DNA of 64,000 bases from Corallococcus sp. Z5C101001 (GTDB lineage Bacteria; Myxococcota; Myxococcia; Myxococcales; Myxococcaceae): positions 635,940-699,939 of the forward strand of contig NZ_VKLU01000005.1 of NCBI RefSeq assembly GCF_007352635.1, in the 5' to 3' direction. The notes beneath the pieces were generated by a model. That model was not told where the DNA came from. It saw nothing but the letters and a program-made list of their open reading frames with translations, and did no database searches. Of the stretch, positions 10,135 to 64,000 are shown in pieces. Made by a program: the position numbers and the translations under genes. Numbering within the stretch: the first letter of the stretch is position 1; the number at the start of each line of letters is the position of its first letter.

Positions 10135-11796
10135 CTACGGGACTGGCGCGCTCTCCATCGGAAGCACCGCGGAGGCGATCAAGTCCAGGCGCCCCTCGCG
10201 AAGCCACGGCGACCCCAGCTCCGACAGCAGCCGCGCCAGCGTGACGTTCACCACCCGACGCAGCTCCTCTCTCGCGCCTTCCGGCACCGCGGGCGACAGC
10301 GTCGCCACCGCGCGCTCCGCCGCGCTCGGGCGCAGGCGAGGCGAATCCGGGGTGCCTTCGAAGAGGCGCTGGCCCAGCTCCACCGTGCGCCCCAGGGGCA
10401 CGGGCCGCACGTCCACGCGCTCCTCCAGCACGGCCATGGCGACGCCCGCCGCCCACAGCCGCTCCACGCCCAGCACATCCAGCGAGACGCCGAAGCGGGC
10501 CAGCACCGTGCGCGCCGCGCCGTCGGAGCCGCCCAGCAGCGCGCCCAGCGCCGCCACCTGGCCCTCGGCGCGCGCGAGCAGCACCTCCGAACCGGCCACC
10601 TCCCGGAGCGAGCGGAACGGCACCGCTTCCGCGCCGGGCACGCGCAGCGCGCGGCGGGGCCGCTTGCGCCGCAGGGCCTCCAGCGCGGCGGCCTCCTCGG
10701 GGAGCACCAGCGGCACGTCGTCCAGCTTCACGAAGGGCGCCTTGAAGAGGCGGTCCGCGCGGTACTTGAGCTGGAGCGTCAGCGTGAAGCCCACCTGGAA
10801 GACGCGGCGCAGGGGCGTGTCGCGCAGCGCCTCCGGCGCCTTGGACGGGTCGCCGCCCGTCAGGTGCTCCAGGCCCAGCGACAGGTAGTCGCGCACCCAT
10901 TCGCCCACGCGGCGCACGGCGTCCAGGTCGCCCGGGTCGCCCAGCTCCGCGACGAGCACCGCGTTGGCCACTTCGCGCAGCTCATCCTCCGCGTTCATCC
11001 GCTCCACGTCGGACAGGTCGCGGAAGGCGGCCTCCAGGTAGTCCAGGTGGCCGCCCGTGGCGGTGAGCGCGGGGGCGGCGTTGCTCGAGGGACGCGGCGG
11101 CACGTCCACGCGGCTGAAGAGCGCCAGGGCGTCCTCCAGCGACGGGAAGCCCAGGTCGGACAGGCGCGCGCGGCGGAACTGGAACGCGGTCTCCTCCAGC
11201 TCGGAGGGAATCTCCCAGCGCACGGCCTCGAAGAGGCGCACCGCTTCGAAGGGGTTCTCCGCGATGAGGTCGTTGAGGAGCGCGCGCATGGCGGACATCT
11301 CCACGCCGTCCACCTTCAGCTCCACCAGGTAGCGCCCCTCCGGGGTCTCCATCGTCACGCCCTGCGGGTTGACGTCCGGGTTCTCCTCCAGGTCGTGGAC
11401 GACGGTGAACTCCTTGAGGAGCGTCTCCACCACCTCCAGGTCCACCGCGTGCACCTTGCGCAGGAAGTCCTCGGGTTCATCCCCGCGCGCGGCGCGCAGC
11501 CAGGTGAGCACCGCGTGCGGCTCCAGCTTGTCCTTCGACCAGCCGCCCAGGTCCACGAAGGTGCGGAACTGCGCGGGCGACGCCAGCTGCACGAGGTCCG
11601 TCGTGTCCGCCAGCCCCACCTCCTGGATGGTGACGTACAGGTCCTCCGCTGGCAGCGAGCGCACCAGCGCGGGCGTATCCTCCGCGTCGTAGAGCGCCGC
11701 CACCCGCTGGCGCGGGGACAGGCGCATCAACCGCTGACGCTCCTCGCGGGGAGCGAGGGGCGAAACACCACCGTTCGTCTTGCCGTTCTGGGACAC
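10135..11796 (-). CDS. Conserved hypothetical protein (about 550 aa, acidic, no TM) of the kind restricted to Myxococcales. Function unknown.
   Basis: A long ORF with strong GC3 bias on this strand and no recognisable catalytic motif. The start is ambiguous: a GTG at 11796 or an ATG about 69 nt downstream with a GAGGAG upstream. Confidence 0.5.
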   Translation of the reverse strand: MSQNGKTNGGVSPLAPREERQRLMRLSPRQRVAALYDAEDTPALVRSLPAEDLYVTIQEVGLADTTDLVQLASPAQFRTFVDLGGWSKDKLEPHAVLTWLRAARGDEPEDFLRKVHAVDLEVVETLLKEFTVVHDLEENPDVNPQGVTMETPEGRYLVELKVDGVEMSAMRALLNDLIAENPFEAVRLFEAVRWEIPSELEETAFQFRRARLSDLGFPSLEDALALFSRVDVPPRPSSNAAPALTATGGHLDYLEAAFRDLSDVERMNAEDELREVANAVLVAELGDPGDLDAVRRVGEWVRDYLSLGLEHLTGGDPSKAPEALRDTPLRRVFQVGFTLTLQLKYRADRLFKAPFVKLDDVPLVLPEEAAALEALRRKRPRRALRVPGAEAVPFRSLREVAGSEVLLARAEGQVAALGALLGGSDGAARTVLARFGVSLDVLGVERLWAAGVAMAVLEERVDVRPVPLGRTVELGQRLFEGTPDSPRLRPSAAERAVATLSPAVPEGAREELRRVVNVTLARLLSELGSPWLREGRLDLIASAVLPMESAPVP

Positions 11797-11835
11797 GCCG
11801 GGGGTGCTACCACAGCGTGCCCGGCCCCGGGAGAC

Positions 11836-12456
11836 TCAGACGCGGGTGGCCTTGCCGAAGGTGTCCAGCAGCGTGCCCCACACCTCCTCCACGCCCAGCT
11901 TTTCGGTGGAGGAGAACGGGATCACCGCCTCGCGGGGCAGCTCCAGCTGCGCGGCCACCGCGTGCAGCCGGGGCTTGCGCTGCGCCTTCGTCAGCCGGTC
12001 CACCTTGGTGGCCACGACGAGGATGCGGCGGTTGTGCTCCTGCAGATAGTCCAGCGTCTGGAGGTCTTCCGGAGTGGGGCCCACCTCCGCGTCGATGATG
12101 CTCACCACCACCTCCAGCCGGTGCCGGTTCTTCAGGTAGGAGGTGATCATCGCCTGCCACTGGGCCTTGTCCGCCTTGCTCGCCTTGGCGAAGCCGTAGC
12201 CGGGCAGGTCCGCCAGGCGCACCGTGTGGCGCTGCCCGTCGCGGTCCAGGTCCACGTCGAAGAAGTTGAGGGTGCGGGTGCGCCCGGGCGTGTTGGACAC
12301 GCGCACCAGCTTCCGCCGGTTCGTCAGGGCGTTGATCATGGACGACTTGCCCACGTTGGAGCGGCCGACGAAGGCCACCTCCGCGGCGTGGTCCGTGGGC
12401 AGGCCCTTGAGCTCCACGGCGGTGGTGACGAAGCGGGAGTCGAGGATCTTTATCAA
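11836..12456 (-). CDS. engB: Ribosome biogenesis GTP-binding protein YihA/EngB.
   Basis: The G1 motif GRSNVGKSS, the G3 DLPGYG and the G4 TKVD are present in typical EngB order. The start appears to be TTG, 11 nt after the upstream cytochrome stop. Confidence 0.85.
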   Translation of the reverse strand: MIKILDSRFVTTAVELKGLPTDHAAEVAFVGRSNVGKSSMINALTNRRKLVRVSNTPGRTRTLNFFDVDLDRDGQRHTVRLADLPGYGFAKASKADKAQWQAMITSYLKNRHRLEVVVSIIDAEVGPTPEDLQTLDYLQEHNRRILVVATKVDRLTKAQRKPRLHAVAAQLELPREAVIPFSSTEKLGVEEVWGTLLDTFGKATRV

Positions 12457-52036: not shown

Positions 52037-53665
52037 TCAACCGGGCTGGTACACCCGGTAGTCCAGCTCGGGGAACAGGTTGTCCCGCCCCTCCACGTGG
52101 GAGAGCCAGGACGCGTCGACCGTGCCCGCGCGCACCTGGTCGTGCAGTCGGAGGAAGCGTTGCAAATGCTCCTTCGTGCGACGCACGGCGTAGTCCACCA
52201 TGGTGCCGGTCTTCATGATGAAGGCCCAGTCGGAGGACTGCGCGAGGAGCAGCTCGCGCGCGGCCTGATTCAGCGCCCGGCGCGTCAGCGGCGGCGCGTC
52301 GGGAAAGTCCCGGGCCAGCTCCACCATCTGTCGCGCGCAGTGGTTCAGGTGGCGGTAGATCCAGTCGTTGGTCCCGTCCAGCCACATGTTCGCATAGCCG
52401 CCCGCGCCCCAGGACGACAGGGGCGGCGTGGCCACCTGGTTCTCCGGGTGCTCGCGCAGGTCATCCAGAGGGCTGATCAACTGGAGGCGGCTGGGGTTGC
52501 GCGCGGCCTGACGGATGAGGGCGTCGATGAAGTGCGGGCCTTCGAACCACCAGTGGCCGAAGAGCTCGGCGTCGTAGGGCGCGACGACCACCGGCTTGCG
52601 GCCGTTCATGCGGGACGCGAGGTGTTCGAACTGGCGCTCGCGATTGAACAGGAAGTTGCTCGCGTGCACCCAGGCGCGCTCGCGGGCCGCGGCCGGGTTG
52701 TAGGGCTGCTTGTCGTTCGTCTTGCCGGTGATGCGGAAGTACTTGAAGCCGGTGTTCTTGCGGTCGCCGGTGGGCTGGACGAAGGGCCGGATGTAGTCCT
52801 GGTCCAGGTCCCAGCCGATGTCCCGATAGAACTCGCGGTAGACGGGGTCGCCGGGGTAGCCGTGCTCGGTGCTCCACACCTGCTGGCTGCTCTCCGGATC
52901 GCGGGCGAAGGCGGCGACGCCCGGCTCGGTGAAGATGGGCGCGTAGGGGCCATGGAGCGGACGGGGCGAGGCGTCCGTGAGCGCGTGCGTGTCGACGAAG
53001 AAGTAGCGGATGCGCTCGGCGGCGAGGATGCGCTCCAGGCCCGGGTAGTAGCCGCACTCCGCCAGCCAGATGCCCGAGGGATCGCGGCCGAAGTTCTGGC
53101 GGTAGTGGTTCGCCGCCACCGTCACCTGGGCGCGCACGGCCTCGGGCGTCTGCTGCATCAGCGGCAGGAAGCCATGGGTCGCGTTGCAGGTGAGGATGTC
53201 CAGGTGGCCGGAGTCCTGGAGCCTGCGGAACGCGGCCACCAGGTCGCGCCGGTACTGGTTGTGGTACGCGAGGCGCAGCGATTCGAAGTGGTCGCGGTGG
53301 AAGACGGCCAGCGGATGGAAGGTGGCGTCATCCCGGGTGCGGTGCACCTCGCGGGCGCCGAGTTCGCAAAGCAGCTCCAACCGCCGGGCGTAGCGCTCCC
53401 GCAGCAGCTCGTCGTTGAGCATGGAGACGAGCGTGGGCGACAGCGTCATCGTCACGCGGAACGGGACGCGGTCCTCGACCAGCGCGTCGAACACGCGCAG
53501 CAGCGGCAGGTACGTCTCGGAGATGGCTTCGTAGAGCCAGTCCTCCTCGAGGAAGTCCTCGTACTCGGGGTGGCGGACGAACGGGAGGTGCGCGTGAAGG
53601 ACCAGCGCGAGGGAGCCCAGGCTCATAGGTCGGTCGAGTGGCCGTGCGGGTTCACTTACGTCCAC
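52037..53665 (-). CDS. Glycoside hydrolase family 57 1,4-alpha-glucan branching enzyme (GH57 plus C-terminal DUF1957).
   Basis: The N-terminus LALVLHAHLPFVRHPEYEDFLEEDWLYEAISETYLPLL is the GH57 signature. The catalytic region ...WLAECGY... and the C-terminal helical DUF1957 region are present. The start is either 53665 or an internal ATG (MSLGS). Confidence 0.8.
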   Translation of the reverse strand: MDVSEPARPLDRPMSLGSLALVLHAHLPFVRHPEYEDFLEEDWLYEAISETYLPLLRVFDALVEDRVPFRVTMTLSPTLVSMLNDELLRERYARRLELLCELGAREVHRTRDDATFHPLAVFHRDHFESLRLAYHNQYRRDLVAAFRRLQDSGHLDILTCNATHGFLPLMQQTPEAVRAQVTVAANHYRQNFGRDPSGIWLAECGYYPGLERILAAERIRYFFVDTHALTDASPRPLHGPYAPIFTEPGVAAFARDPESSQQVWSTEHGYPGDPVYREFYRDIGWDLDQDYIRPFVQPTGDRKNTGFKYFRITGKTNDKQPYNPAAARERAWVHASNFLFNRERQFEHLASRMNGRKPVVVAPYDAELFGHWWFEGPHFIDALIRQAARNPSRLQLISPLDDLREHPENQVATPPLSSWGAGGYANMWLDGTNDWIYRHLNHCARQMVELARDFPDAPPLTRRALNQAARELLLAQSSDWAFIMKTGTMVDYAVRRTKEHLQRFLRLHDQVRAGTVDASWLSHVEGRDNLFPELDYRVYQPG

Positions 53666-55991
53666 GGCGCGAAGACCGGGACCGGGAGGAGGACTTGGAG
53701 CCCGGGGACGCAGGCTCCGGCGGATTCTTCGGCGGCTCGGGAGGCGCGGACGACTTCGCGGTCGTGGGAGCCGCCTCCTTCACAGGCGCGGCACTCGGAG
53801 CCACGGGCGCTTCGCTTCGCGCGGGCGCGGCGCTCGAACTCCCTGGCGCCGGAGGAGCCCTTCGCGCCGCCTCGGCGGCCTCGCGTGCCTTGTCCAGGGC
53901 GCGCTGCTCGGACGCGGTGGGGCCTCGCGTGATGCTCAAGGCCCACGGGTCCCGAGGCGCCTCCGGCTCCGGGGCTGACACGGGCCCCGGCGAGCGTGCC
54001 TCGGCCCCGCTGACGGGGACAGGGCGCGCCAGCGGGAGGTCCCTCGCCTCGAGTGCCTCGCCCTGTGAAGGGGATGCGGACTCGGGTGCGCGTGGCGCGC
54101 TCGGAGTCCCGCTTGCCCCCGTCGCCCGCTCCACGGACAGGGACTGCTGATCCGAAGCGCCCGTCACCAGGGGCACGGCCTGGTATTGCTGATCCGACGC
54201 CCCCACCGCTCGATCCACGGACAGGTAGCGCTGCTCCGACGCCCCCACCGCGCGGGGAACGGTCAGATACCTTTGGTCCGAAGCCCCCGGTGCGCGCGGC
54301 ACCTCCAGATACTGCCGGTCCGAAGCCCCGGGCACGGCAGACACCGTGAGATAGCGCTGGTCCGAAGCACCCGGCGCCCGCGGGACATCGAGATACGCCT
54401 GGGCTCCCCGCCCCTCCACGTACCGCTGCTCGGAAGCCCCCGCGGCGCGAGGCACCTCCAGATAGCGGTACGCCGACACGCCTCCAGGAAGCAGCGTCTG
54501 CCCGTACCGCTGTTCCGAGGCACCGGCCGCACGAGCCACCTCCAGATACGGGTGGCGGGCCGGTGCTCCAGCGAGCTGGTCCGAAGCACCCGGCACTCGC
54601 TCCACGGACAGGTAGCGCTGATCCGACGCCCCTGGCGCACGCGACGGCGCCAGCACCTCTCCCCCGCCGAGCTTCGTCTCCCCCATCCGCGCCACGGCCT
54701 CGTACCGTTGGTCCGAAGCCCCCGGTGCACGCGGCACGTCGAGATGATCCGCTTCCGCGTAGCGCTGATCCGACGCGCCCGGGACTCGCGGCGCATCGAC
54801 ATAAGCTTCCGTGCGCTCGCGGTGGACCTCCGGCACGTCCATCACGCCCCCGCTCCCCGGCAGCGACACCCGGCGCCAGGTCACGTATTCGCGCTCCTGG
54901 ACACCTGGTACTCGCGTGGACGCCGCCTCCGGACCCGCCTCCGCGTGCTGTCGCTCCTCGACTGGCGGAGGCATGCGCAGGAACCGGATGGACGTATCCT
55001 CTGACGGCCCCGCGGGCGGCAGCGTGGCCCGGTTCGAGGACTGCCCGATGCGGCGCGACCGGCCATCGGCGCCGACGAAGTGCGCCTCCACCCGGTACGT
55101 GCGCCCGGGCGACAGGCCCTGAAGGTAGAAGCTGCGCGACTCCAGCGCGAAGTCCACCTCGCGCGACACGCCTTCACCGTCGAACACCTTCAATACGGCG
55201 CGAGGCGACGGCAAGCCGTCGAGCGCCCGACCCCGGGTCGCGTCGCTGAAGTCCCAGAAGGCGAACAGCGTGTGAGGATCCCGCGCGAGCAGCACCATCG
55301 CGTCGTCCTGGTAGTCCAGGGGCAACACGCCCAGGTGCTCTTCCCGCTCGGGCGACGCGTCAGCCGGCGGCAAGCGCGGCGACTGCTCCTCCAAGAGGTG
55401 GTGGCGGCGCGCCTCATCTGGCCCCGCCATCCTCGTCACGAAGAAGCCCTCCACCAGCGGCTCGGCCGCATGGGGCGGCTCGCTCGCGGGCGAAGCGGGC
55501 GCATCCGGAGCGGCGCCATCGCGAGCGCTCGACGGGCGCGGAGTCGCGACCTCGGGGCCGAGCGACAGCGTGTCCTCGTCATCCGGGTCCCGGCGAGCCT
55601 TCTCCCGGGCCGGGAACGTCACCACCCGCGCGGGCTGCGTCCTGGGCCCGCCACTGGGCTGCGTGATGGGCTCCTCGGAAAGTTCTCGTGCATGTGATCC
55701 CGCTGCCTCGGCCGGAGGCAGCGGCACGGACTCGGCAGGCGCGGCGTGCACGGGGCCGGAATCCTCCCGTCTGGAATCCAGCGTCCTCGCTTCACCCTTC
55801 ACGTCCCCCGAGCCACGCTGGGACGTGCCCAGCCCCGCCATGCGCGCGAGCCGCCCCAGGGCGGGAATGCGCTCGGCCAGCGAGGCGACGAACTCCCGCC
55901 CCCGGGACGTGCCGGACCCTTGCCGGAGGTATTTCCGGGCCAGTTCCCGCAGGTAGCTCACGGTGACGCCCTTCCGCTCATCCATGGACAC
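53652..55991 (-). CDS. DUF4912-domain protein with a long Pro/Ala/Ser-rich disordered region, about 14 degenerate PRAPGASDQRY-type repeats and a basic C-terminus.
   Basis: The DUF4912-like core is LPLDYQDDAMVLLARDPHTLFAFWDFSDATRGRALDG...AVLKVFDGEGVSREVDFALESRSFYLQGLSPGRTYRVEAHFVGADGRSRRIG. The gene's 3' end overlaps the GH57 start by about 14 nt, consistent with translational coupling. Confidence 0.6.
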   Translation of the reverse strand: MSMDERKGVTVSYLRELARKYLRQGSGTSRGREFVASLAERIPALGRLARMAGLGTSQRGSGDVKGEARTLDSRREDSGPVHAAPAESVPLPPAEAAGSHARELSEEPITQPSGGPRTQPARVVTFPAREKARRDPDDEDTLSLGPEVATPRPSSARDGAAPDAPASPASEPPHAAEPLVEGFFVTRMAGPDEARRHHLLEEQSPRLPPADASPEREEHLGVLPLDYQDDAMVLLARDPHTLFAFWDFSDATRGRALDGLPSPRAVLKVFDGEGVSREVDFALESRSFYLQGLSPGRTYRVEAHFVGADGRSRRIGQSSNRATLPPAGPSEDTSIRFLRMPPPVEERQHAEAGPEAASTRVPGVQEREYVTWRRVSLPGSGGVMDVPEVHRERTEAYVDAPRVPGASDQRYAEADHLDVPRAPGASDQRYEAVARMGETKLGGGEVLAPSRAPGASDQRYLSVERVPGASDQLAGAPARHPYLEVARAAGASEQRYGQTLLPGGVSAYRYLEVPRAAGASEQRYVEGRGAQAYLDVPRAPGASDQRYLTVSAVPGASDRQYLEVPRAPGASDQRYLTVPRAVGASEQRYLSVDRAVGASDQQYQAVPLVTGASDQQSLSVERATGASGTPSAPRAPESASPSQGEALEARDLPLARPVPVSGAEARSPGPVSAPEPEAPRDPWALSITRGPTASEQRALDKAREAAEAARRAPPAPGSSSAAPARSEAPVAPSAAPVKEAAPTTAKSSAPPEPPKNPPEPASPGSKSSSRSRSSRRGRK
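54110..54803. repeat. In-frame array of about 14 degenerate 13-14-aa repeats (consensus VPRAPGASDQRYLxV) within the DUF4912 protein gene.
   Basis: The units YVDAPRVPGASDQRY, LDVPRAPGASDQRY, LEVARAAGASEQRY, LEVPRAAGASEQRY, LDVPRAPGASDQRY, LEVPRAPGASDQRY, LTVPRAVGASEQRY, LSVDRAVGASDQQY and others are visible in the translation. Confidence 0.5.
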
Positions 55992-56119
55992 CTCGCCTCG
56001 TTATGTCGCGGCATACAGGGGGTCAACGCATCCGTCACGGGATGTGTTGGTCTGCCGACCCCGTTCTTCTCCGTCACGCCCGATGACACCTCCGCCTTGT
56101 CCAAGTATCCTGCGACCGC

Positions 56120-59100
56120 TTGAGTGACCTGCCCAGACTTCTCCTGTGCAGCTTTGACGTCATCCCCGGCCCGTCTGGCTCCTCACGCCGACTGACCGAG
56201 TATCTGAAGGCGTTGCCTGATCGCTTCTCCGTGGTGGTGCTGTCGGCGAAGACGCCCGACCACTCCCATATCGAGAAGTACCAGGGCGCCCGGCTGCTCC
56301 GGGTCCCGGTAGGCTCCGGGGACCTGGCCTCGCGCATCCAGTCCTTCGAACGGGCCGTGCGTCGGCAGCTGGAGAGCGAGGACTACGCCCTCGCCCACTT
56401 CACGGACCCCTTTGGCGGCTACGCGCTCTGCGAGCTGAAGGCGGACTACGGCTACCGCCTCATCTATGAGGCCCAGACGTTCCCGTCCCAGGAGCTGCGC
56501 TACACCCATCCGCAGACGGACGGGGACCGCCGCTTCCTGTCGAAGATCCGCCGGCAGGAGCTCTTCTGCCTGATGAACGCGGACCTCGTGGTCACCGGCT
56601 CGCAGACGACGCGCGCGTACATCCAGGGGCTGGGAGCGGCGGAGGACCAGCTGCGCATGCTGCGCGCGCCGGTGGACCTGCAACCGTACGACCCCGAGGT
56701 GCTCGGCGTCCCGGATGGGTCGCCCCTCCGGATGATGTACCTGGGCAGCCACGTGGGCTGGCAGGGCCTGCCCACCCTGCTGCGGGCCACCGCGCTCGCG
56801 GCCCAGCAGGTGGACGTGCGGTTGACGCTGGTGGGCGCGCACCATCCGGACTGGAAGCCCCACCTGGACGACCTGGTCAACGACCTGGGACTCAAGGAGA
56901 AGGTCGACTTCCAGCCGCCGGTCACGCACGACGACCTGGTGAAGGTGCTGGCGCTCGCGGACGTGGGCGTGCTGCCGCTGGACGACTCGGAGCGCAACCG
57001 GCTCCAGGGTGGACCGCTGGCCAAGGTCTCCGAGTATCTGGCCGCCGGACGGCCCGTCATCGCCGCGGACCTGCCCGTCACCCGTGAGCTGATTCCCAAG
57101 GACGCCGCGGTCTTCTTCCCACCCGGCGACAGCCGCGCCCTCTCCGAGCGCATCCTCGATCTGGCGCGCGACGTGCCTCGCCGCGTGGCGCTCGGACGGG
57201 CTGGGCGCGCGTTCGCGGAGAAGGTGCTGGACGCGCGCCTCATCCGGGGCCAGTTGCTGGACCTCTACGACTCGCTGCTGGAGAAGCGAGGGCACGTGCC
57301 GGTGGAGGCCTCCAGCGAACCGCCCGACGTCACGATGACGGGCACGCCCACGAACCGGCTCGCGAGCCTGGGCATGCCGGAGGCGTCGAAGCCCGCGCCG
57401 ATGCCCAAGGCCCCCGCGAAGCCCGCCGTTGAGGAAGCGGCGGCGCCCCCCGCGAAGGAAGGCGCGGAGGACCTGCCCCTGGTGATGGGGATGGCGCTGG
57501 ACGATGGGATGGACACGCGGCTCGTGAAGACCGAGCCGGACATGCGGCCCGACGAGGTCCCCATGGTGATGGGGCTGCCGCTCCGCGAGTCCGCCGCGAG
57601 CCCACCCGCCGCGGCGCCCGAACCCGCGTCCACGCCGACGTCCAAGACGACCGACGGGGCCGCGAGGAGCGCACTCCCGGTCCCTCCCGAGAAGGAGGAG
57701 CCCGAGCCCCTGGGCGGACGGATCGGCGACGCCCCCCAACCCACCGAGATGCTGACGCGTCCCGCCGCGAAGCCGCTCGCGGCGGGGGACGACGCACAGT
57801 CCTCCGACACGGGTGACGACAGCGCGGATGCGGCATCGTCCGGGGTGACGGTCGTGCGCCGGCCTTTCGGGGACGGCGAAGGCGACGCGCCCGCCTCTAC
57901 GGCCACCGTGCGCAAAGCGCCCGGAGACGCCGAGGAGTCGGCCCCGGCCGCCACACCCATCGTGCATCGACCGGCCGGAGATGATGTGGACGCCGCACCG
58001 GCGCCCACGCCCATCGTTCGCAGGCCCACGTCCCTGGACGACGACGAGAGCGCCGCACCAGCGCCCACGCCCATCGTCCGCAGGCCCACGTCCCTGGACG
58101 ACGACGAGAGCGCCGCACCGGCCCCGACGCCCGTCGTCCGCAGGCCCACCGCCCCGGATGACGACGAGCGCGTCTCGCCAGCGCCCACGCCTATCGTCCG
58201 CAGGCCTACGTCCCTGGACGACGACGAGAGCGCCTCACCAGCTCCGACGCCCGTCGTCCGCAGGCCTCCATCCCCGGACGACGAGCGCGCCTCACCAGCG
58301 CCCACGCCTATCGTCCGCAGGCCCGCCGACCCGGACGACGACGAGCGCGCCTCACCTGCGCCCACGCCCATCGTCCGCAGGCCCGCCGACCCGGACGACA
58401 ACGAGCGCGCCTCACCTGCGCCCACGCCCATCGTCCGCAGGCCCGCCGACCCGGACGACGACGAGCACGCCTCACCAGCGCCCACGCCCATCGTCCGCAG
58501 GCCCGCTCCTCCAGAGGAAGAGGACTCCGCGCCCGTCGTCCGCAAGTCCTCCTCCACGGAGGACGAGCCTTCCGCGTCCAGCGCACGCCGCCCCTCATCA
58601 CTCTCGGAGGACGAGGAGCGAGCCCCCACGCCCATCGTGCGCCGCGCCAGCGTCACCCGCGATGACGAGTCGCCCGCTCCGACGCCCATCGTGCGCCGGT
58701 CCTCCGTGCTGGCGGAGGACTCCCCGGAGCCACCGGCGCCCACGCCCATCGTCCCCATGCGGTCCGTGTTGAGCGGAGCCCGTAGCACCGGGGCCGGGCG
58801 GTCGACGCGGCCGAGCGCCACGCCGGATCAGGCCCCCTTCGAACCGCCTCGCCTCTCTCCCTCTCCCCTTCCCATGGCCGACGCGGACAAACCGCTCATC
58901 CGTGGCGGCCTCGTCGCGGATGCTGGCCGGCCCTCCTCCTCCCGTCCTCCGGTGCTCACGGAGTCCGACAAGCCGCCCCTCCGAGGGGGTCTCGCGCCGG
59001 ACGCGGACCGCCCACCGCAGCTGCCGCCCCGCGCCACCGCCCCGCCTCCCGTCCCCCGTCAGGGGCCGCCGCCACGGCTGCTGCCCACGCCGGATCCGCA

Positions 59101-59518
59101 GGCGAAGACACCACCCGTGCTGAGGCCCTCCACGCCCGCGCACGCCGACGACGAGCCGGAGGAGATCGCCGCCGACGAGGCCCAGTCCCTGGACGACGAC
59201 GTGAGCCACACGCCGTCGAACGCCAGCGCGGCGCTGGACGAGCCGGAGGAGATCGACAGCGACGAGGTCCACGACGCGGACTCGCTCGACATGGAGGACG
59301 CGGAGGCCGAAGACGCAGGGCCCGCGCCCGCGCCCCCTGGCTCCACGCTCAACCCGTGGTTCGCGCAGCTCGCGCACGGGTACTGCCCGCCCGAGGGCGC
59401 GCGCTTCGCCCGGCACACCCCGCCCACGAACTTCCCCGGGCGGGATCCGGATGAGGCCGCGTCCCCAGGGGCGACTCCCCCTGTCGGCCAGGGAGCGGTT
59501 CGCGGCAAGAACTCGTGA
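56120..59518 (+). CDS. Glycosyltransferase family 4 catalytic domain (about 390 aa) fused to a roughly 740-aa Pro/Asp/Ala-rich intrinsically disordered tail containing about 15 tandem 20-aa repeats.
   Basis: The N-terminal GT-B/GT4 features include MYLGSHVGWQGLPTLL..., the EX7E-like region (VLPLDDSERNRLQGGPLAKVSEYLAAGRPVIAAD) and the closing GRAFAEKVLDARLIRGQLLDLYDSLL. The tail repeats read PAPTPIVRRPTSLDDDESAA. The gene is divergent from the DUF4912/GH57 operon. Confidence 0.7.
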   Translation: MSDLPRLLLCSFDVIPGPSGSSRRLTEYLKALPDRFSVVVLSAKTPDHSHIEKYQGARLLRVPVGSGDLASRIQSFERAVRRQLESEDYALAHFTDPFGGYALCELKADYGYRLIYEAQTFPSQELRYTHPQTDGDRRFLSKIRRQELFCLMNADLVVTGSQTTRAYIQGLGAAEDQLRMLRAPVDLQPYDPEVLGVPDGSPLRMMYLGSHVGWQGLPTLLRATALAAQQVDVRLTLVGAHHPDWKPHLDDLVNDLGLKEKVDFQPPVTHDDLVKVLALADVGVLPLDDSERNRLQGGPLAKVSEYLAAGRPVIAADLPVTRELIPKDAAVFFPPGDSRALSERILDLARDVPRRVALGRAGRAFAEKVLDARLIRGQLLDLYDSLLEKRGHVPVEASSEPPDVTMTGTPTNRLASLGMPEASKPAPMPKAPAKPAVEEAAAPPAKEGAEDLPLVMGMALDDGMDTRLVKTEPDMRPDEVPMVMGLPLRESAASPPAAAPEPASTPTSKTTDGAARSALPVPPEKEEPEPLGGRIGDAPQPTEMLTRPAAKPLAAGDDAQSSDTGDDSADAASSGVTVVRRPFGDGEGDAPASTATVRKAPGDAEESAPAATPIVHRPAGDDVDAAPAPTPIVRRPTSLDDDESAAPAPTPIVRRPTSLDDDESAAPAPTPVVRRPTAPDDDERVSPAPTPIVRRPTSLDDDESASPAPTPVVRRPPSPDDERASPAPTPIVRRPADPDDDERASPAPTPIVRRPADPDDNERASPAPTPIVRRPADPDDDEHASPAPTPIVRRPAPPEEEDSAPVVRKSSSTEDEPSASSARRPSSLSEDEERAPTPIVRRASVTRDDESPAPTPIVRRSSVLAEDSPEPPAPTPIVPMRSVLSGARSTGAGRSTRPSATPDQAPFEPPRLSPSPLPMADADKPLIRGGLVADAGRPSSSRPPVLTESDKPPLRGGLAPDADRPPQLPPRATAPPPVPRQGPPPRLLPTPDPQAKTPPVLRPSTPAHADDEPEEIAADEAQSLDDDVSHTPSNASAALDEPEEIDSDEVHDADSLDMEDAEAEDAGPAPAPPGSTLNPWFAQLAHGYCPPEGARFARHTPPTNFPGRDPDEAASPGATPPVGQGAVRGKNS
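57900..58760. repeat. Tandem in-frame 60-nt repeats (about 15 copies, central ones near-identical) encoding P-A-P-T-P-I-V-R-R-P-[T/A]-[S/D]-[L/P]-D-D-D-E-[S/R]-A-[A/S].
   Basis: The unit ccagcgcccacgcccatcgtccgcaggcccacgtccctggacgacgacgagagcgccgca recurs with small substitutions (TSLDDDESA, TAPDDDERV, PSPDDERAS, ADPDDDERAS, ADPDDNERAS, ADPDDDEHAS). Confidence 0.6.
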
Positions 59519-59617: not shown

Positions 59618-62600
59618 ATGGAGCGTCGCGTCCTCATCGTCGAAAGCCAGAACGACTTCGCACTCAGCATGGCCTCCGTGCTCAAGAGCGCGGGCTACAA
59701 CACGGCCATGGCCACCACTGCGTCAGACGCGCAGCGGGAGCTGGAGAAACGCCGACCCGATCTGGTCGTCGTGCGCGCGGAGCTGCCGGACCAGTCCGGC
59801 TTCGCCCTCTGTGGTCAGATCAAGAAGGGCAAGTGGGGACAGAACCTCAAGGTCCTCCTCCTCTCCTCCGACTCTGGCGTGGAGGGGCTGAACAAGCACC
59901 GTGAGACGCCCGCCGCCGCAGATGGCTATCTCGTCATCCCGTTCGAGATGGGAGAGCTCGCGTCGATGAGCGCGGGCATCGTGCCGCCCGGCTCCGATGA
60001 GACGGACGCGGACCTGGACGCCGCGCTCTCGGGCGCCCCGCGGGAAGCCCCGCCCCCCATGCCCGGCGTGCGCACCGGCGCCCCGCCCAAGCTGCCCAAG
60101 CGCGAGCGCCGCAGCGCGATGACGGACGAGGACAAGTCCTTCATGGACCGGGCCTTCTCGTCCATCGCGGACCGCAAGGCGGAGCTCTTGGCGGAGTCCC
60201 GCCAGTTGAAGCGCCCGCCCCCGCGCCGCGAGCTGATGGGCACGCCCGAGGGGAAGATCCAGATCCTCCGGGACGAGCTGAAGACGCGTGAAGCGCAGCT
60301 CGCGCGCCTGTCGGAGATCTGGAGCGTCCGCGAGCGGGAGCTGCTGTCCGTCGAGGACCGCCTCCACGAGAAGGACGTGGAGCTGCAGGGCCTGAAGATG
60401 CAGGTGGATGACCTGCTGCGGCGCTTCAACGACGCCCAGCAGTCCATCGTCCAGAAGGAGCGCGAGCACGGCGCCACCGTGGACGACCTGCTCCTGCAGA
60501 AGTTCTCCTCGGAGAAGGACCTCATCGAGGTCGTCGCCTCCAAGGAGAAGGACATCAACGTCCTGCGCAAGGAGGTCAACCTCCGCGACGAGGAGCTGGC
60601 CCGGCGCGGCGCGGACCTGGAGAGCTGGCGCAACGAGTTCGACAAGCTGGAGAAGCACCTCGGCGTCGTCACGCTGGAGTTCGAGGTCAAGGAGCAGAAG
60701 CTCCAGGACACCGTCCGCGCCAACGAGGCGGACATCCTCCAGCTGCGCGAGCGCGGCGACCAGTTCGAGTCGGAGCTGGGCCGCACCGTCAGCGAGCGCG
60801 ACCAGCGCTACGCCGAGCTGGACGGCGAGCTCCAGGCCCTCCAGGAGCGCCTGAGCCAGACGGAGCAGGAGCGCGACGCCACCGTGCGCGGCCTGGAGAC
60901 CCGGGCCACCACGGCGGAGGAGCACGCCAGCCGCTCCGACGCGGAGATCGAGCGCCTCAACGCCGAGCGCGCCCAACTGGAGCAGCGCCTCACGCAGCAG
61001 GTGGCGGACCTGGAGTCGGACATCGCGCGCGTCACTGGCGAGCGCGACCAGCTGCGGCTGGACAAGGACGCCCTGGAGGCGGACCTCACCCAGCGCGTGG
61101 AGGAGCGGGACGCGAAGCTCTCCGCGCTCGACCGCGAGCTGCAGGAGGCCATCGCCCGCAACGAGAACAGCGAGGCGGAGCTCAACGCCACCATCCAGCA
61201 GCACCGCGAGCGCATCGGTGAGCTGGAGGGCGAGGTCGAAGCCGTCAAGACGCACCTGGAGGACCGCGAGTCGGAGCTCAACGCGGAGCTCCAGGCGCTC
61301 CAGCAGGCCAAGGACGCGCTGGAGCAGGACCTCACCAGCCAACTGGAGGACCTGCGCGCCGCGAAGGACGCCCTGGAGGCGGACCTCAACGGTCAGATTC
61401 AAGCGCTCAGCGAGCAGCTGGACGCCGCCCAGCGCCAGGGCGAGCAGCTCTCCGCGCGCGTCGCCTCCCTCGAGGACACCGTCGCCCAGCGCGACGGCAC
61501 CATCGAGGGCCTGCAGTCCGACGTCGCCGAGCGCGACTCGCGCATCTCCGAGCTGACCGGCAACCTGGAGGCCACCAGCCAGCAGCTCTCCGAGACGCAG
61601 GGCACGCTCTCCAGCACCGAAGCCACCCTCGCGGAGACGCGCGGCGAGCTCGAGGCCACCAGCCAGACCCTCGCGGACACCCAGGCGACGCTGGCCCGCA
61701 CCGAGGGCACGCTGTCGGAGACGCGCGGCGAGCTGGAGGCCACCAGCCAGACCCTCTCCGAGACGCAGGCGAACCTCGCGCGGACGGAGGAGACGCTCTC
61801 CACCACCCGCGGCGAGCTGGAGGCCACCAGCCAGACGCTGGCCACCACCGAGGCCACCCTCGCCCAGACGCAGGACACGCTGGCGCGCACGGAAGGCACC
61901 CTCGCGGAGACGCAGGGCACCCTCGCCAGCACCGAAGGCACGCTCGCGGAGACGCGCGGCGAGCTCGAGGCCACCAGCCAGACGCTCGCGGACACCCAGT
62001 CCCGGCTCGCGCAGACGGAGGAGACACTCTCCACCACGCGCGGTGAGCTGGAGGCCACCAGCCAGACCCTCTCCGACACGCAGGGCACGCTCGCCAACAC
62101 CGAGGGCACGCTCGCGGAGACGCGCGGCGAACTCGAGGCCACCAGTCAGTCGTTGACGGACACGCAGTCGCGGCTGGCGCAAACGGAGGCCACGCTCGCG
62201 TCCACCCAGGGCGAGCTGGAGGCCACCAGCCAGACGCTGGCCACCACCGAGGCCACCCTCGCCCAGACCCAGGACACGCTGGCGCGCACGGAAGGAGCCC
62301 TCGCGGAGACGCAGGGCACCCTCGCCAGCACCGAGGGCACGCTCGCGGAGACGCGCGGCGAACTCGAGGCCACCAGTCAGACGCTGACGCAGACCCAGGA
62401 CACCCTGGAGGCGACGCGCGGCGACCTGGCGAAGGTGACCACGCACCGCGATGAGCTGGACGCGGAGCTGAACGAGACGCGCGACATCCTCCAGGAGACC
62501 AACGGCCTCCTGGCGCGAACCACCGAGGAGCGCGACGCTCGCATCGCGGAGCTGAAGGCGCTCCACGAGGCGAAGGATTCGCTGGAGCAGGACCTCACGG

Positions 62601-64000
62601 GCCAGATTGGCCAGCTGCGCGCGGACCTGTCGGAGACGCAGGGCCTCTACGACGCCGAACGCGGCGCGCACGCGAAGCTCGCCGAAGAGACCACCGCGCA
62701 CATCAACGCCCTCACCGGCGAGCGCGACGGGCTGACCTCAGACCTCTCCGCCACGTCGCAGCAGTTGGCGGACACGCAGGGCCAGCTCGCCGGGACCCAG
62801 GACGCGCTGGCCCGCGAGGAGCAGGCCCACGCCCAGGCCCGCCAGGCCGCCGCCAACACCCAGGCGGAGCTGGAGCGCCAGCTCTCCGACTCCCAGGCCA
62901 ACGGCGAGGACCTGGCCGAACAGCTCATCGTCACCAAGCACGAGCTGGGCACTCGCGTGGCGGAAGTCACGCAGCTGTCCTCCACGCTCGCGCAGACGGA
63001 GGACGCGCGCCACCACCTGGAGGACCGCCTCCAGACGCTCACCCACGAGTCGCAGCGCCGTGAGGAGCTCCTCCAGAACGAGGTCGACACCAAGGGCAAG
63101 GAGCTGTCGGACACGCTGCGCAAGCTCACCCACGTGACGCAGGAGAAGATGCGTCAGGCGGAGGTGCTCAACCGCGAGGTCGCCACCCGCACCGAACAGG
63201 TGAAGCAGCTGGAAGGCCAGCTGGAGGCCCAGGCCGCCGAGTCCAAGAAGCAGGCAGACGCGCTGAACCAGCAGCTCTCGTCGGTGTCCGGCGAGCTGGA
63301 CGGGACGCGCAAGGCCGTCGCCGACCGCGACGCGCAGCTCCAGCACGCCGCGCAGCACCAGAAGAAGCTCACCAGCGAGCGCGACGGGCTGGCCGGACAG
63401 CTCCAGCAGGCCCAGGCCCAGGCCCAACAGCAGGCCCAGCAGGCCGCCGCCGCCGCCGCCGAGGCGAAGAAGCAGGCGGACGACCTGGCCGCGAAGCTGG
63501 CCAAGTCCGAGCAGCGCATCGCGCAGCTGGCGCAGGAGGCCCAGAAGTTCGCCGCCGACACCGACGCGAAGCTCAAGGACGCCCAGGCCCAGCTGCAGGC
63601 CCGCACCAAGAAGGCCCAGGACCTGGAGCTGGCGCTGGAGAACGCCCAGAGCACCCGGGCCCGCGCGGAGAAGGACCTCAACGCCCGCGTCGCCGCCGCG
63701 GAGACCAAGGCCAACGAGGCCGCCGCCCGGCTCGCCACCGCGCAGAAGGAGCGCAAGGACCTGGAGGCCCGTCAGGTCAAGGAGCTGGAGGACCTCAACG
63801 CCAAGCAGAAGGCCGAGCTGGAGCGCCGCGAGGCCATCAAGGCCCAGGAGGTCGCCCGCCTCCAGACCTCCGTCCAGGAGAAGAGCAAGGCGCTCAAGGT
63901 CGCGGAGCTGGAGCTGGCCCGCTTCAAGAGCAAGGCCCCCGCCCCGGCCGCCGCCCCCGCCGCGAAGGCCGCCGCCAAGCCCACCGAGGACGAGCACCTC
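59618..64000 (+). CDS. aglZ: AglZ-like gliding-motility scaffold: N-terminal FrzS/AglZ-type pseudo-receiver domain followed by a coiled-coil of more than 1300 residues. It is partial: no stop codon before the window end.
   Basis: MERRVLIVESQNDFALSMASVLKSAGYNTAMATTASDAQRELEKRRPDLVVVRAELPDQSGFALCGQIKK has a receiver fold lacking the canonical phospho-accepting Asp context. Continuous heptad-rich, myosin-tail-like sequence runs to the last codon of the window. The ORF is missing from the track because it has no stop. Confidence 0.6.
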   Translation, partial: MERRVLIVESQNDFALSMASVLKSAGYNTAMATTASDAQRELEKRRPDLVVVRAELPDQSGFALCGQIKKGKWGQNLKVLLLSSDSGVEGLNKHRETPAAADGYLVIPFEMGELASMSAGIVPPGSDETDADLDAALSGAPREAPPPMPGVRTGAPPKLPKRERRSAMTDEDKSFMDRAFSSIADRKAELLAESRQLKRPPPRRELMGTPEGKIQILRDELKTREAQLARLSEIWSVRERELLSVEDRLHEKDVELQGLKMQVDDLLRRFNDAQQSIVQKEREHGATVDDLLLQKFSSEKDLIEVVASKEKDINVLRKEVNLRDEELARRGADLESWRNEFDKLEKHLGVVTLEFEVKEQKLQDTVRANEADILQLRERGDQFESELGRTVSERDQRYAELDGELQALQERLSQTEQERDATVRGLETRATTAEEHASRSDAEIERLNAERAQLEQRLTQQVADLESDIARVTGERDQLRLDKDALEADLTQRVEERDAKLSALDRELQEAIARNENSEAELNATIQQHRERIGELEGEVEAVKTHLEDRESELNAELQALQQAKDALEQDLTSQLEDLRAAKDALEADLNGQIQALSEQLDAAQRQGEQLSARVASLEDTVAQRDGTIEGLQSDVAERDSRISELTGNLEATSQQLSETQGTLSSTEATLAETRGELEATSQTLADTQATLARTEGTLSETRGELEATSQTLSETQANLARTEETLSTTRGELEATSQTLATTEATLAQTQDTLARTEGTLAETQGTLASTEGTLAETRGELEATSQTLADTQSRLAQTEETLSTTRGELEATSQTLSDTQGTLANTEGTLAETRGELEATSQSLTDTQSRLAQTEATLASTQGELEATSQTLATTEATLAQTQDTLARTEGALAETQGTLASTEGTLAETRGELEATSQTLTQTQDTLEATRGDLAKVTTHRDELDAELNETRDILQETNGLLARTTEERDARIAELKALHEAKDSLEQDLTGQIGQLRADLSETQGLYDAERGAHAKLAEETTAHINALTGERDGLTSDLSATSQQLADTQGQLAGTQDALAREEQAHAQARQAAANTQAELERQLSDSQANGEDLAEQLIVTKHELGTRVAEVTQLSSTLAQTEDARHHLEDRLQTLTHESQRREELLQNEVDTKGKELSDTLRKLTHVTQEKMRQAEVLNREVATRTEQVKQLEGQLEAQAAESKKQADALNQQLSSVSGELDGTRKAVADRDAQLQHAAQHQKKLTSERDGLAGQLQQAQAQAQQQAQQAAAAAAEAKKQADDLAAKLAKSEQRIAQLAQEAQKFAADTDAKLKDAQAQLQARTKKAQDLELALENAQSTRARAEKDLNARVAAAETKANEAAARLATAQKERKDLEARQVKELEDLNAKQKAELERREAIKAQEVARLQTSVQEKSKALKVAELELARFKSKAPAPAAAPAAKAAAKPTEDEHL
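61560..62430. repeat. 21-nt periodic in-frame repeat array (about 40 heptads of type x-T-x-x-T-L-A/S, e.g. ETRGELE ATSQTLA DTQATLA RTEGTLS) inside the AglZ-like coiled coil.
   Basis: Nucleotide units such as gcggagacgcgcggcgagctcgaggccaccagccagacgctc recur many times. Thr/Leu positions are strictly phased. Confidence 0.6.

What the first reader, a model, noticed from the sequence alone, without database searches (positions are those of the whole stretch)
59618..64000. AglZ-like pseudo-receiver plus giant coiled coil containing a phased 21-nt heptad repeat array
The N-terminal 120 aa form a FrzS/AglZ-type receiver-like domain. The remainder is an uninterrupted myosin-tail-like coiled coil that runs off the window with at least 1460 aa, longer than M. 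xanthus AglZ. Between about 61.56 and 62.43 kb the coiled coil becomes a strict heptad array (ETRGELE/ATSQTLA/DTQATLA/RTEGTLS ...) with Thr and Leu fixed in register. It is encoded by highly similar 21/42/84-nt units. This looks like a lineage-specific expansion that would lengthen the rod by a defined increment per copy. AglZ length is relevant because AglZ is thought to link MglA and focal-adhesion gliding complexes to the cytoskeleton.
Basis: partly seen in the sequence, partly recalled or inferred. Interest (0 to 1): 0.6.

Follow-up and report, generated by a model that had tools for sequence, protein, structure and literature searches.

The report
Corallococcus AglZ with expanded Thr/Leu heptads
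This is the Corallococcus version of AglZ, a known gliding-motility scaffold protein; its rod contains 41 perfect seven-residue Thr/Leu repeats, against 24 in a Myxococcus xanthus strain, which makes it a longer variant of a known protein and not a new system.

Summary
An ORF starting at 59618 (+) runs off the window after 1460 codons. It encodes a receiver-fold domain without a phospho-acceptor (CheY D57 is Arg52 here, K109 is Ile, D13 is Ser). A proline-rich linker follows, then a proline-free helical rod of about 1,230 aa. Residues 652-938 (nt 61571-62431) are 41 uninterrupted heptads x-T-x-x-x-L-x, with Thr and Leu present in 41 of 41.

The gene is the positional ortholog of M. xanthus aglZ. 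It is 82% identical to the M. xanthus locus in the receiver domain and 80% in the proline-rich sequence. The GH57-DUF4912-GT4-aglZ gene order is conserved, and identity to FrzS is only 28%. Full-length Corallococcus orthologs are 1526-1532 aa, so the window lacks about 69 C-terminal residues.

The array is not peculiar to this lineage. AglZ orthologs carry 7 to 41 heptads (M. xanthus AM003 24, other Myxococcus 19-36, Archangium 14-36). All 13 Corallococcus sequences have exactly 41. That number arose from an old duplication of a 19-heptad (399-nt) block.

The array is in phase with the flanking coiled coil (Leu at a, Thr at d). It is under purifying selection (dN/dS 0.23). Similar Thr/Leu heptad arrays occur in unrelated proteins.

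Verdict: an ordinary ortholog with a modestly interesting, apparently undescribed, length-variable module.

The parts
59618..64000 (+). aglZ ortholog, 5' 96% of the CDS (1460 of about 1528 codons); it runs off the window
   Evidence: Open frame. GC3 is 96%. It is collinear with 1526-1532-aa ORFs in 12 Corallococcus loci.
59618..59983 (+). Pseudo-receiver domain, aa 1-122 (E9, S10, R52, S, I107 at CheY D12, D13, D57, T87, K109)
   Evidence: Pfam PF00072 at E 4e-12. Best PDB match is the FrzS receiver domain 2gkg at E 2e-13. Alignment A1. dN = 0 among 13 Corallococcus with dS 0.19.
59984..60256 (+). Proline-rich sequence, aa 123-213; equivalent to the GltJ-GYF-binding proline-rich sequence (PRS) of M. 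xanthus AglZ
   Evidence: Prolines at aa 123-160 and 200-210. 80% identity to the same stretch of the M. xanthus locus L019. PRS defined as residues 123-213 in PMC11135422. dN/dS 0.067.
60257..61570 (+). Coiled-coil rod, first part, aa 214-651, with heptad phase shifts of +4
   Evidence: No proline; heptad phase tracking. Only generic coiled-coil family hits, all below cut-off.
61571..62431 (+). Thr/Leu heptad array: 41 x (x-T-x-x-x-L-x), aa 652-938; Leu at a and Thr at d, in phase with the flanks
   Evidence: Helical in both AlphaFold2 models. dN/dS 0.225.
61634..62032 (+). Block A of the 19-heptad duplication (heptads 4-22, aa 673-805)
   Evidence: TRF period 399 nt. A versus B is 83% identical at DNA level in the window. 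A-A between species averages 0.905.
62033..62431 (+). Block B of the 19-heptad duplication (heptads 23-41, aa 806-938)
   Evidence: B-B between species averages 0.887, above A-B within species (0.77-0.85).
62432..63937 (+). Coiled-coil rod, second part, aa 939-1440
   Evidence: No proline; heptad phase tracking.
63938..64000 (+). Start of the Pro/Ala/Lys-rich C-terminal tail. The conserved end motif (...DWTALVDELDK) lies beyond the window.
   Evidence: C-termini of the orthologs.

Best explanation
The gene is the Corallococcus ortholog of aglZ (MXAN_2991). AglZ is the cytoplasmic scaffold of the myxobacterial gliding (A-motility) focal-adhesion machinery.

The protein has four parts: a non-phosphorylatable receiver-fold head, a proline-rich linker, a helical rod about 180 nm long, and a short conserved C-terminal tail that lies outside the window. 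In M. xanthus the linker docks onto the GYF domain of GltJ.

Inside the rod sits a module shared by AglZ orthologs, a run of perfect heptads with Leu at core position a and Thr at core position d. This module has grown and shrunk in each lineage by in-frame duplication or loss of blocks of whole heptads. In the ancestor of Corallococcus a 19-heptad (399-nt) block was duplicated, giving 41 heptads (3 + 19 + 19). That count has since been kept unchanged under purifying selection.

Shown here: orthology, the pseudo-receiver status, the anatomy and phase of the array, the duplication, and the copy numbers across taxa.

Inferred: the array forms a continuous coiled coil, so each heptad adds about 1.04 nm. 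On that reading 41 heptads make 42.6 nm, about 18 nm more than in M. xanthus AM003, and the module acts as a length-setting spacer or self-association segment of the scaffold.
For: Architecture:
- Receiver domain found by Pfam.
- CheY D13, D57 and K109 are replaced by S, R and I, and these replacements are shared by all orthologs aligned.
- FrzS receiver domain is the top hit among solved structures.
- The proline-rich stretch at aa 123-213 corresponds to the published AglZ PRS.
- 1,230 aa are free of proline.

Orthology:
- 80 loci from Myxococcaceae and Archangiaceae carry a collinear gene, including M. xanthus AM003, with 82% receiver and 80% PRS identity.
- The upstream GH57-DUF4912-GT4 gene order is conserved.
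- Published work describes AglZ as receiver + PRS + coiled coil of 153 kDa, paralogous to FrzS, with no member phosphorylatable.

Array:
- 41 of 41 heptads have Thr and Leu.
- All 13 Corallococcus sequences, including two complete genomes, have 41 heptads at identical coordinates. Other genera have 7-36.
- Self-identity at a shift of 19 heptads is 80% against a baseline of about 53%. Blocks A-A and B-B between species are more alike than A-B within a species.
- Other lineages show different best shifts (5, 10, 14, 15, 17 heptads), which indicates independent block duplications.
- The array is in phase with the preceding canonical heptads, with Leu at a and Thr at d.
- dN/dS is 0.225.
- The array is predicted helical.
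Against: - No tool gave access to the MXAN_2991 record itself. Identity of the M. xanthus locus with aglZ rests on architecture, size and the exclusion of FrzS.
- The oligomeric state and geometry of the array are unknown. A core of Thr at every d position with frequent Gly at f is atypical for a stable parallel dimer.
- The single-sequence AlphaFold2 models fold the rod back on itself at low confidence. They neither confirm nor exclude a straight rod.
- No functional data exist for Corallococcus.
- Draft short-read assemblies could in principle collapse repeats. Against that, the two complete genomes agree.
Confidence: 0.8

Rival explanations
1. The duplicated array does not extend the rod. 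Blocks A and B, or arrays of neighbouring molecules, pack side by side as an antiparallel hairpin or four-helix bundle. The array would then be the filament-forming or self-association node of AglZ and not a spacer.
For: - Both AlphaFold2 models place a helix break at aa ~783-838 and ~800-806, close to the A/B junction at 805/806.
- From established knowledge of GCN4 core variants, Leu at a with a beta-branched residue at d (the pLI variant) favours tetramers over dimers.
- The title of Yang et al. 2004 (cited) calls AglZ filament-forming.
Against: - The breaks have pLDDT below 50. They fall near the points where a monomer model would fold a long helix into equal halves or thirds, so the control was inconclusive.
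- Orthologs with 7-19 heptads and no internal duplication carry the same motif.
- The array is in continuous phase with the flanking heptads.
Confidence: 0.12
2. The invariant Thr residues form a binding or modification platform, for example targets of the many myxobacterial Ser/Thr kinases or a docking surface for partners such as MreB or FrzCD. Copy number would then tune valency and not length.
For: - Thr at position 2 appears in essentially all of the 1193 array heptads pooled from the AglZ orthologs, although the array boundaries were defined by that Thr/Leu pattern.
- A second Thr occupies position 5 in 58% of those heptads.
- AglZ is reported to interact with MglA and possibly MreB.
Against: - Thr sits at the position that falls in the coiled-coil core (d) when the phase is read from the flanks, so it would be buried.
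- Similar Thr/Leu heptads occur in unrelated proteins fused to dynamin-like GTPases, methyltransferases and membrane anchors. That argues for a generic structural role.
- No phosphoproteomic or binding data were found.
Confidence: 0.06
3. The array is a hypermutable contingency repeat, or an assembly artefact, whose copy number has no meaning.
For: - Some public partial proteins stop right at the start of the array: C. exiguus 695 aa on a 2240-nt contig, and M. virescens 672 aa.
- Two C. fuscus strains differ by about 105 nt in the array region.
Against: - All 13 Corallococcus sequences, from different species and different sequencing technologies, have exactly 41 heptads.
- Neighbouring units are only 52% identical at DNA level, which makes them poor substrates for slippage.
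- Purifying selection is evident, with dN/dS 0.225 and dS 0.27.
- The C. fuscus NCWS locus also carries frameshifts, which suggests sequencing error.
Confidence: 0.02

Closest known systems
Myxococcus xanthus AglZ (MXAN_2991)
   Same: Same architecture: pseudo-receiver, proline-rich sequence at aa 123-213, giant coiled coil, and a Pro/Ala-rich tail with a conserved acidic end. Receiver identity is 82% and PRS identity 80% to the M. xanthus AM003 locus. The upstream gene order matches that of complete Myxococcus genomes. The same Thr/Leu heptad array sits at the same place in the rod.
   Different: 41 heptads against 24 in M. xanthus AM003. Full length in the genus is about 1528 aa (167.7 kDa for the C. 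coralloides ortholog) against the published 153 kDa. The extra length comes mainly from one 19-heptad block duplication.
FrzS (M. xanthus S-motility protein; receiver structure 2gkg/2i6f)
   Same: Paralogous family. It has a receiver fold without a phospho-acceptor, followed by a coiled coil. It is the best solved-structure match for the N-terminal domain.
   Different: Only 28% identical in the receiver domain. FrzS has Ala where this protein has Arg at the D57 position. Its coiled coil is 235 aa, against about 1,230 aa here.
Thr/Leu (S/T-x-x-x-L) heptad arrays in unrelated proteins
   Same: The array alone finds 1231 cluster representatives at E <= 1e-3. Many have near-perfect x-T-x-x-x-L-x heptads, for example STQGDLS STRDELS, QTQSQLH QTQAELG and ATQSELT ATKDTLS.
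   Different: These arrays are attached to other modules: N-terminal membrane anchors, dynamin-family GTPases, methyltransferases and DUF6273. The similarity is a recurrent repeat type and does not indicate common descent with AglZ.
Length-setting coiled-coil and ruler proteins (e.g. Lpp, YscP; from general knowledge, not tested here)
   Same: The idea that adding or removing whole heptads changes a defined physical distance.
   Different: No evidence here that AglZ length sets any cellular dimension. This is an analogy only.

Membership tests
AglZ (MXAN_2991 orthologs) | N-terminal receiver-fold domain lacking the phospho-acceptor Asp | tested here: met
   Pfam PF00072 at E 4e-12. D57 is R52, D13 is S10 and K109 is I107 in alignment A1. 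Published statement that no AglZ or FrzS member has a functional phosphorylation site (PMC4546325).
AglZ (MXAN_2991 orthologs) | Proline-rich sequence after the receiver domain (residues 123-213 in M. xanthus; binds the GltJ GYF domain) | tested here: met
   Sequence present and 80% identical to the M. xanthus AM003 stretch. PRS definition from PMC11135422. Binding itself cannot be tested with these tools.
AglZ (MXAN_2991 orthologs) | Very long C-terminal coiled coil (1076 aa in M. xanthus) | tested here: met
   aa 211-1440 are proline-free with heptad periodicity. Helical in the AlphaFold2 models. Only generic coiled-coil hits.
AglZ (MXAN_2991 orthologs) | Orthology with the M. xanthus gene (collinearity and gene neighbourhood) | tested here: met
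   The M. xanthus AM003 locus L019 is collinear with the window gene, and 80 loci carry a collinear gene. The GH57-DUF4912-GT4 neighbourhood is conserved upstream in complete Myxococcus genomes and in other genera; the L019 contig itself is too short to show it. Caveat: the MXAN_2991 record itself could not be fetched.
AglZ (MXAN_2991 orthologs) | Required for A-motility; localises to focal adhesions; binds MglA-GTP | not testable with these tools
   Needs genetics and microscopy in Corallococcus.
FrzS | Close similarity to the FrzS receiver domain; short coiled coil (235 aa) | tested here: not met
   28% receiver identity. Rod about 1,230 aa. FrzS coiled-coil length from PMC4546325.
Conventional two-component response regulator | Intact D12/D13/D57/T87/K109 active site | tested here: not met
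   E, S, R, S and I at these five positions. All NCBIfam response-regulator models score far below their cut-offs.
SMC/Rad50-type coiled-coil ATPases | ABC ATPase head halves and hinge; family score above the curated cut-off | tested here: not met
   TIGR02168 scores 116.8 bits against a cut-off of 567. The matches cover only coiled-coil stretches.

The most novel reading that the evidence does not exclude
The Leu(a)/Thr(d) heptad array is a distinct functional module of AglZ. It would be a tunable spacer or a self-association segment whose heptad number sets the geometry or valency of the cytoplasmic platform of bacterial focal adhesions. The 19-heptad duplication fixed in Corallococcus would then be an adaptive change in gliding-machinery architecture.
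Probability: 0.2. Interest if true: 0.5.

Novelty: new member of a known kind. Interest (0 to 1): 0.25.

Why it matters
AglZ is the standard marker and scaffold of bacterial focal adhesions, but the role of its very long rod is unknown. The comparison made here shows three things.
- The rod contains a conserved, perfectly phased Leu/Thr heptad module.
- The copy number of that module varies from 7 to 41 between genera, by whole-heptad block duplications.
- The count is frozen at 41 within Corallococcus.

This offers a natural allelic series for testing whether rod length or array valency matters for assembly of the gliding machinery. It is also a practical warning that the array truncates some short-read assemblies and annotations. 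Otherwise the gene is an expected ortholog.

Tried and rejected
- The look-up of encoding contigs with the upstream 1132-aa ORF, to recover downstream DNA: no record.
- The search for homologous proteins with aa 1-420: returned only proteins of at most 729 aa, many marked partial and none full-length or named AglZ. Full lengths were taken from genome loci instead.
- The listing of cluster members for three full or partial orthologs: none in the collection.
- Yang et al. 2004 (PMC515175): not held. Searches for 'AglZ + heptad' and 'AglZ + Corallococcus' found no description of the array. It may still be described in papers outside the library.
- The supplement of PMC4546325 held no usable sequences.
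- The second AlphaFold2 run was meant as a control for the fold-back position. It again placed a break near aa 800-806, but that is also close to the equal-thirds point of the segment, so the result is inconclusive.
- FrzS ortholog, conventional response regulator and SMC-like protein were considered and rejected.
- A beta-solenoid or antifreeze-like Thr repeat was considered and rejected. The array is predicted helical, it is in phase with the flanking heptads, and the rod has no proline.


Full report
**What is in the sequence**

From ATG 59618 the + strand is open to the last base of the window, 1460 full codons. GC at third codon positions is 96%, against 70% for the window as a whole. This is therefore the coding frame, and the long antisense ORFs listed are the usual shadows of a high-GC gene.

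Pfam finds one domain above its threshold, Response_reg at aa 5-116 (E 4e-12). All other hits (HMMR_N, crescentin rod, SMC, Rad50, HmpF, Mce) are generic coiled-coil matches. Where a family-specific NCBIfam cut-off applies, the scores are far below it, for example SMC at 116.8 bits against 567.

**The N-terminal domain is a pseudo-receiver**

The best match among solved structures is the receiver domain of M. xanthus FrzS (2gkg, E 2e-13). Canonical receivers follow at E 1e-10 to 1e-4.

In an alignment with E. coli CheY, the positions D12, D13, D57, T87 and K109 read E9, S10, R52, S and I107. Y106 is kept. R52 and I107 are shared by the orthologs from M. xanthus, Archangium and two deeper metagenome-assembled genomes (MAGs) in that alignment.

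Among 13 Corallococcus sequences this domain shows no amino-acid change at all, although dS is 0.19.

**Linker and rod**

Residues 123-213 are proline-rich, and this stretch is 80% identical to the same stretch of the M. xanthus locus. In M. xanthus AglZ, residues 123-213 are the proline-rich sequence (PRS) that binds the GYF domain of GltJ (PMC11135422).

From aa 211 to 1440 there is no proline. A simple tracking of a/d core occupancy shows clear heptad periodicity with a +4 phase shift (stutter) every 40-70 residues. The exception is aa ~582-952, which keep a single phase.

**The array**

Residues 652-938 (nt 61571-62431) are 41 uninterrupted heptads x-T-x-x-x-L-x.
- Thr occupies position 2 in 41 of 41.
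- Leu occupies position 6 in 41 of 41.
- Thr occupies position 5 in 26.
- Gly occupies position 4 in 19.
- Ala occupies position 7 in 23.

The phase is continuous with the preceding canonical heptads. This puts Leu at core position a and Thr at d. The chance probability of such a run is about 1e-89.

At the DNA level, neighbouring 21-nt units are only 52% identical. A four-heptad (84-nt) periodicity gives 67%, and a shift of 19 heptads gives 80%. Tandem Repeats Finder reports period 399 nt, 1.9 copies, 88% matches. Heptads 4-22 and 23-41 align unit for unit, so the array is 3 + 19 + 19 heptads.

Two single-sequence AlphaFold2 models predict the whole region as helix, with mean pLDDT 69-73. Both fold the long helix back on itself at low-confidence breaks. 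The breaks lie close to the junction of the two blocks. They also lie close to the points of equal partition of the input, so they say nothing reliable about a hairpin.

**What the gene is**

A scan of one genome per species found 133 relatives, of which the best 80 loci were kept. All are from Myxococcaceae, Archangiaceae or related MAGs. The window is 90-93% identical at DNA level to 12 Corallococcus loci and identical to none of them.

Complete orthologs have these lengths:
- Corallococcus: 1526-1532 aa, of which the C. coralloides protein weighs 167.7 kDa.
- Myxococcus, Pyxidicoccus and Citreicoccus: 1394-1460 aa, with locus L025 (labelled Comamonas sp. KCTC 72670, 78% identical) at 1500 aa.
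- Archangium and Cystobacter: 1225-1389 aa.

The window therefore lacks about 69 residues. These are a Pro/Ala/Lys-rich tail and a conserved end motif...DWTALVDELDK.

The upstream gene order GH57 - DUF4912 - GT4 is conserved in about 40 of the loci.

The M. xanthus AM003 locus is collinear with the window gene, with 82% receiver identity. It is only 30% identical to FrzS in that domain.

Published work describes AglZ (MXAN_2991) as a 153-kDa protein with a receiver domain, a PRS and a coiled coil of 1076 residues. It is paralogous to FrzS (coiled coil of 235 residues), and no member of the family has a functional phosphorylation site (PMC11135422, PMC4546325, PMC9811614).

By architecture, collinearity with the M. 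xanthus locus, conserved neighbourhood and the exclusion of FrzS, the gene is the Corallococcus aglZ ortholog. The MXAN_2991 sequence itself could not be fetched, so this step rests on the M. xanthus AM003 genome locus.

**The array across taxa**

The same motif, at the same place in the rod, is found in all close orthologs. Heptad counts are:
- Corallococcus: 41 in 13 of 13 sequences, including the complete genomes of C. coralloides KYC2213 and C. exercitus SDU142.
- M. xanthus AM003: 24.
- Other Myxococcus: 19, 25, 28, 29, 32 and 36.
- Pyxidicoccus and Citreicoccus: 19.
- Strain GXIMD 01537: 34.
- Archangium: 14 to 36.
- Vitiosangium: 34.
- Cystobacter fuscus: 28.
- Hyalangium: 7.
- Deeper MAGs: 1 to 6.

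So the array is an ancestral feature of AglZ, and only its length is lineage-specific.

Within Corallococcus, block A of one species is closer to block A of another species (mean 0.905) than to block B of its own gene (0.77-0.85). The same holds for block B (mean 0.887). The duplication therefore predates the radiation of the genus.

In a few genomes (the window, L004, L005, L046), five to seven consecutive heptads show little or no difference between the two blocks. This hints at occasional gene conversion.

Other lineages show different best self-similarity shifts: 5/10 heptads in C. fuscus, 10 in Myxococcus Y35, 14 in M. xanthus, 15 in Vitiosangium, 17 in GXIMD 01537. Expansions were therefore independent block duplications. 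In every close ortholog with seven or more heptads the array stays in one heptad register, so the length changes involved whole heptads.

The array evolves under purifying selection, with dN/dS 0.225. This is similar to the rod segment before it (0.18), while dS is 0.27, so synonymous sites are free to change. My value for the rod after the array (0.35) came from an ungapped comparison and may be inflated by indels.

**Is the repeat type unique?**

It is not. A phmmer search with the 287-aa array against 1.84 billion cluster representatives gave 1231 proteins at E <= 1e-3 and 141 at E <= 1e-10. Inspection of the best hits shows near-perfect S/T-x-x-x-L heptads in unrelated contexts:
- behind N-terminal membrane anchors (P0095, P0110, P0112);
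- in front of dynamin-family GTPase domains (P0099, P0123);
- behind methyltransferase domains (P0104);
- fused to DUF6273 (P0127).

The Leu/Thr heptad is therefore a recurrent way of building a long helical stalk.

**How it most likely works**

From the M. xanthus literature, AglZ is part of the cytoplasmic platform that also contains MglA-GTP and MreB. It docks through its PRS onto GltJ and so helps to assemble and activate the Agl-Glt gliding machinery at the leading pole and in focal adhesions. The Corallococcus protein has every sequence feature needed for the same role. That it plays this role is inferred and was not shown here.

For the array, the most likely reading is a continuous, stutter-free coiled-coil segment. 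Each heptad would add about 1.04 nm, so 41 heptads make 42.6 nm, about 18 nm more than in M. xanthus AM003. The whole rod would be about 182 nm.

The polar Thr core and the frequent Gly at position f suggest a less stable or higher-order packing than a classic dimer. From general knowledge of GCN4 core variants, Leu at a with a beta-branched residue at d favours tetramers. A self-association or fold-back role therefore remains a live rival. A modification or docking platform is less likely, because the invariant Thr would be buried in the core. A contingency repeat or an assembly artefact is excluded by the constant count of 41 in the genus, by the divergence of neighbouring units, and by the purifying selection.

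**Verdict**

The gene is an expected ortholog of a well-studied protein, so novelty is low: a new member of a known kind. The one feature that I could not find described in the literature I could search is the strictly phased Leu/Thr module, together with its variation from 7 to 41 copies and the 19-heptad duplication fixed in Corallococcus. This is a useful handle for structure-function work on the AglZ rod, but it is not a surprise to a specialist.

Noticed in passing
window 56120-59518 (+), repeat at 57991-58506: The upstream ORF has a GT4 glycosyltransferase domain (aa 19-366) and a tail of about 700 aa rich in Pro, Ala and Asp. The tail contains a 60-nt (20-aa, 'APAPTPIVRRPxxxDDDExxS') tandem repeat of 8.6 copies at 87% identity. 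Alignments to other Corallococcus genomes break at about 57591-58453. Several draft contigs end 200-800 nt upstream of aglZ.
   Followed up: partly
window 52037-59518 and loci L003-L076: The gene order GH57 branching-enzyme-like, DUF4912, GT4, aglZ is conserved in about 40 Myxococcaceae and Archangiaceae genomes. A possible link between glycogen-type metabolism genes and aglZ was not explored.
   Followed up: partly
L004:14380-14590 and the equivalent ends of L008, L020, L021, L035 (beyond the window end): All full-length orthologs end with a Pro/Ala/Lys-rich tail and a conserved acidic motif...DRT..Q.PT....DW(T/L)(A/S)(L/M)VDELDK. This is a candidate short linear binding motif, and I found no mention of it in the papers read.
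   Followed up: no
window 60257-63937 (aa 214-1440): Outside the array, the heptad phase of the rod shifts by +4 every 40-70 residues (regular stutters). aa ~582-952 form one stutter-free stretch of about 53 heptads.
   Followed up: partly
L042 and L044 (Cystobacter fuscus Cbf 10 and NCWS), positions about 11760-12240: The two strains differ by about 105 nt (5 heptads) in the array region. The NCWS copy also carries frameshifts that truncate the ORF at 706 aa. This is either real within-species copy-number variation or long-read assembly error.
   Followed up: partly
P0001 (C. exiguus, 695 aa, 2240-nt contig) and P0002 (M. virescens, 672 aa): Public 'response regulator, partial' proteins end right at the start of the heptad array. 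The array evidently breaks some short-read assemblies, so AglZ is often annotated as a truncated response regulator.
   Followed up: no
window 61823-61969 versus 62222-62368 (heptads 13-19 versus 32-38): In the window and in L004, L005 and L046, five to seven consecutive heptads show 0-2 nucleotide differences per heptad between blocks A and B (none at all across seven heptads in L046). Other species show 2-6 differences per heptad there. This suggests occasional gene conversion between the duplicated blocks.
   Followed up: partly
L018 (labelled Corallococcus terminator BB12-2): This locus is only 87% identical in the first 420 aa and has 19 heptads in a 1411-aa protein, like Myxococcus and Pyxidicoccus. 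The C. terminator type-strain locus L001 has 41. The record may carry the wrong taxonomic label.
   Followed up: no
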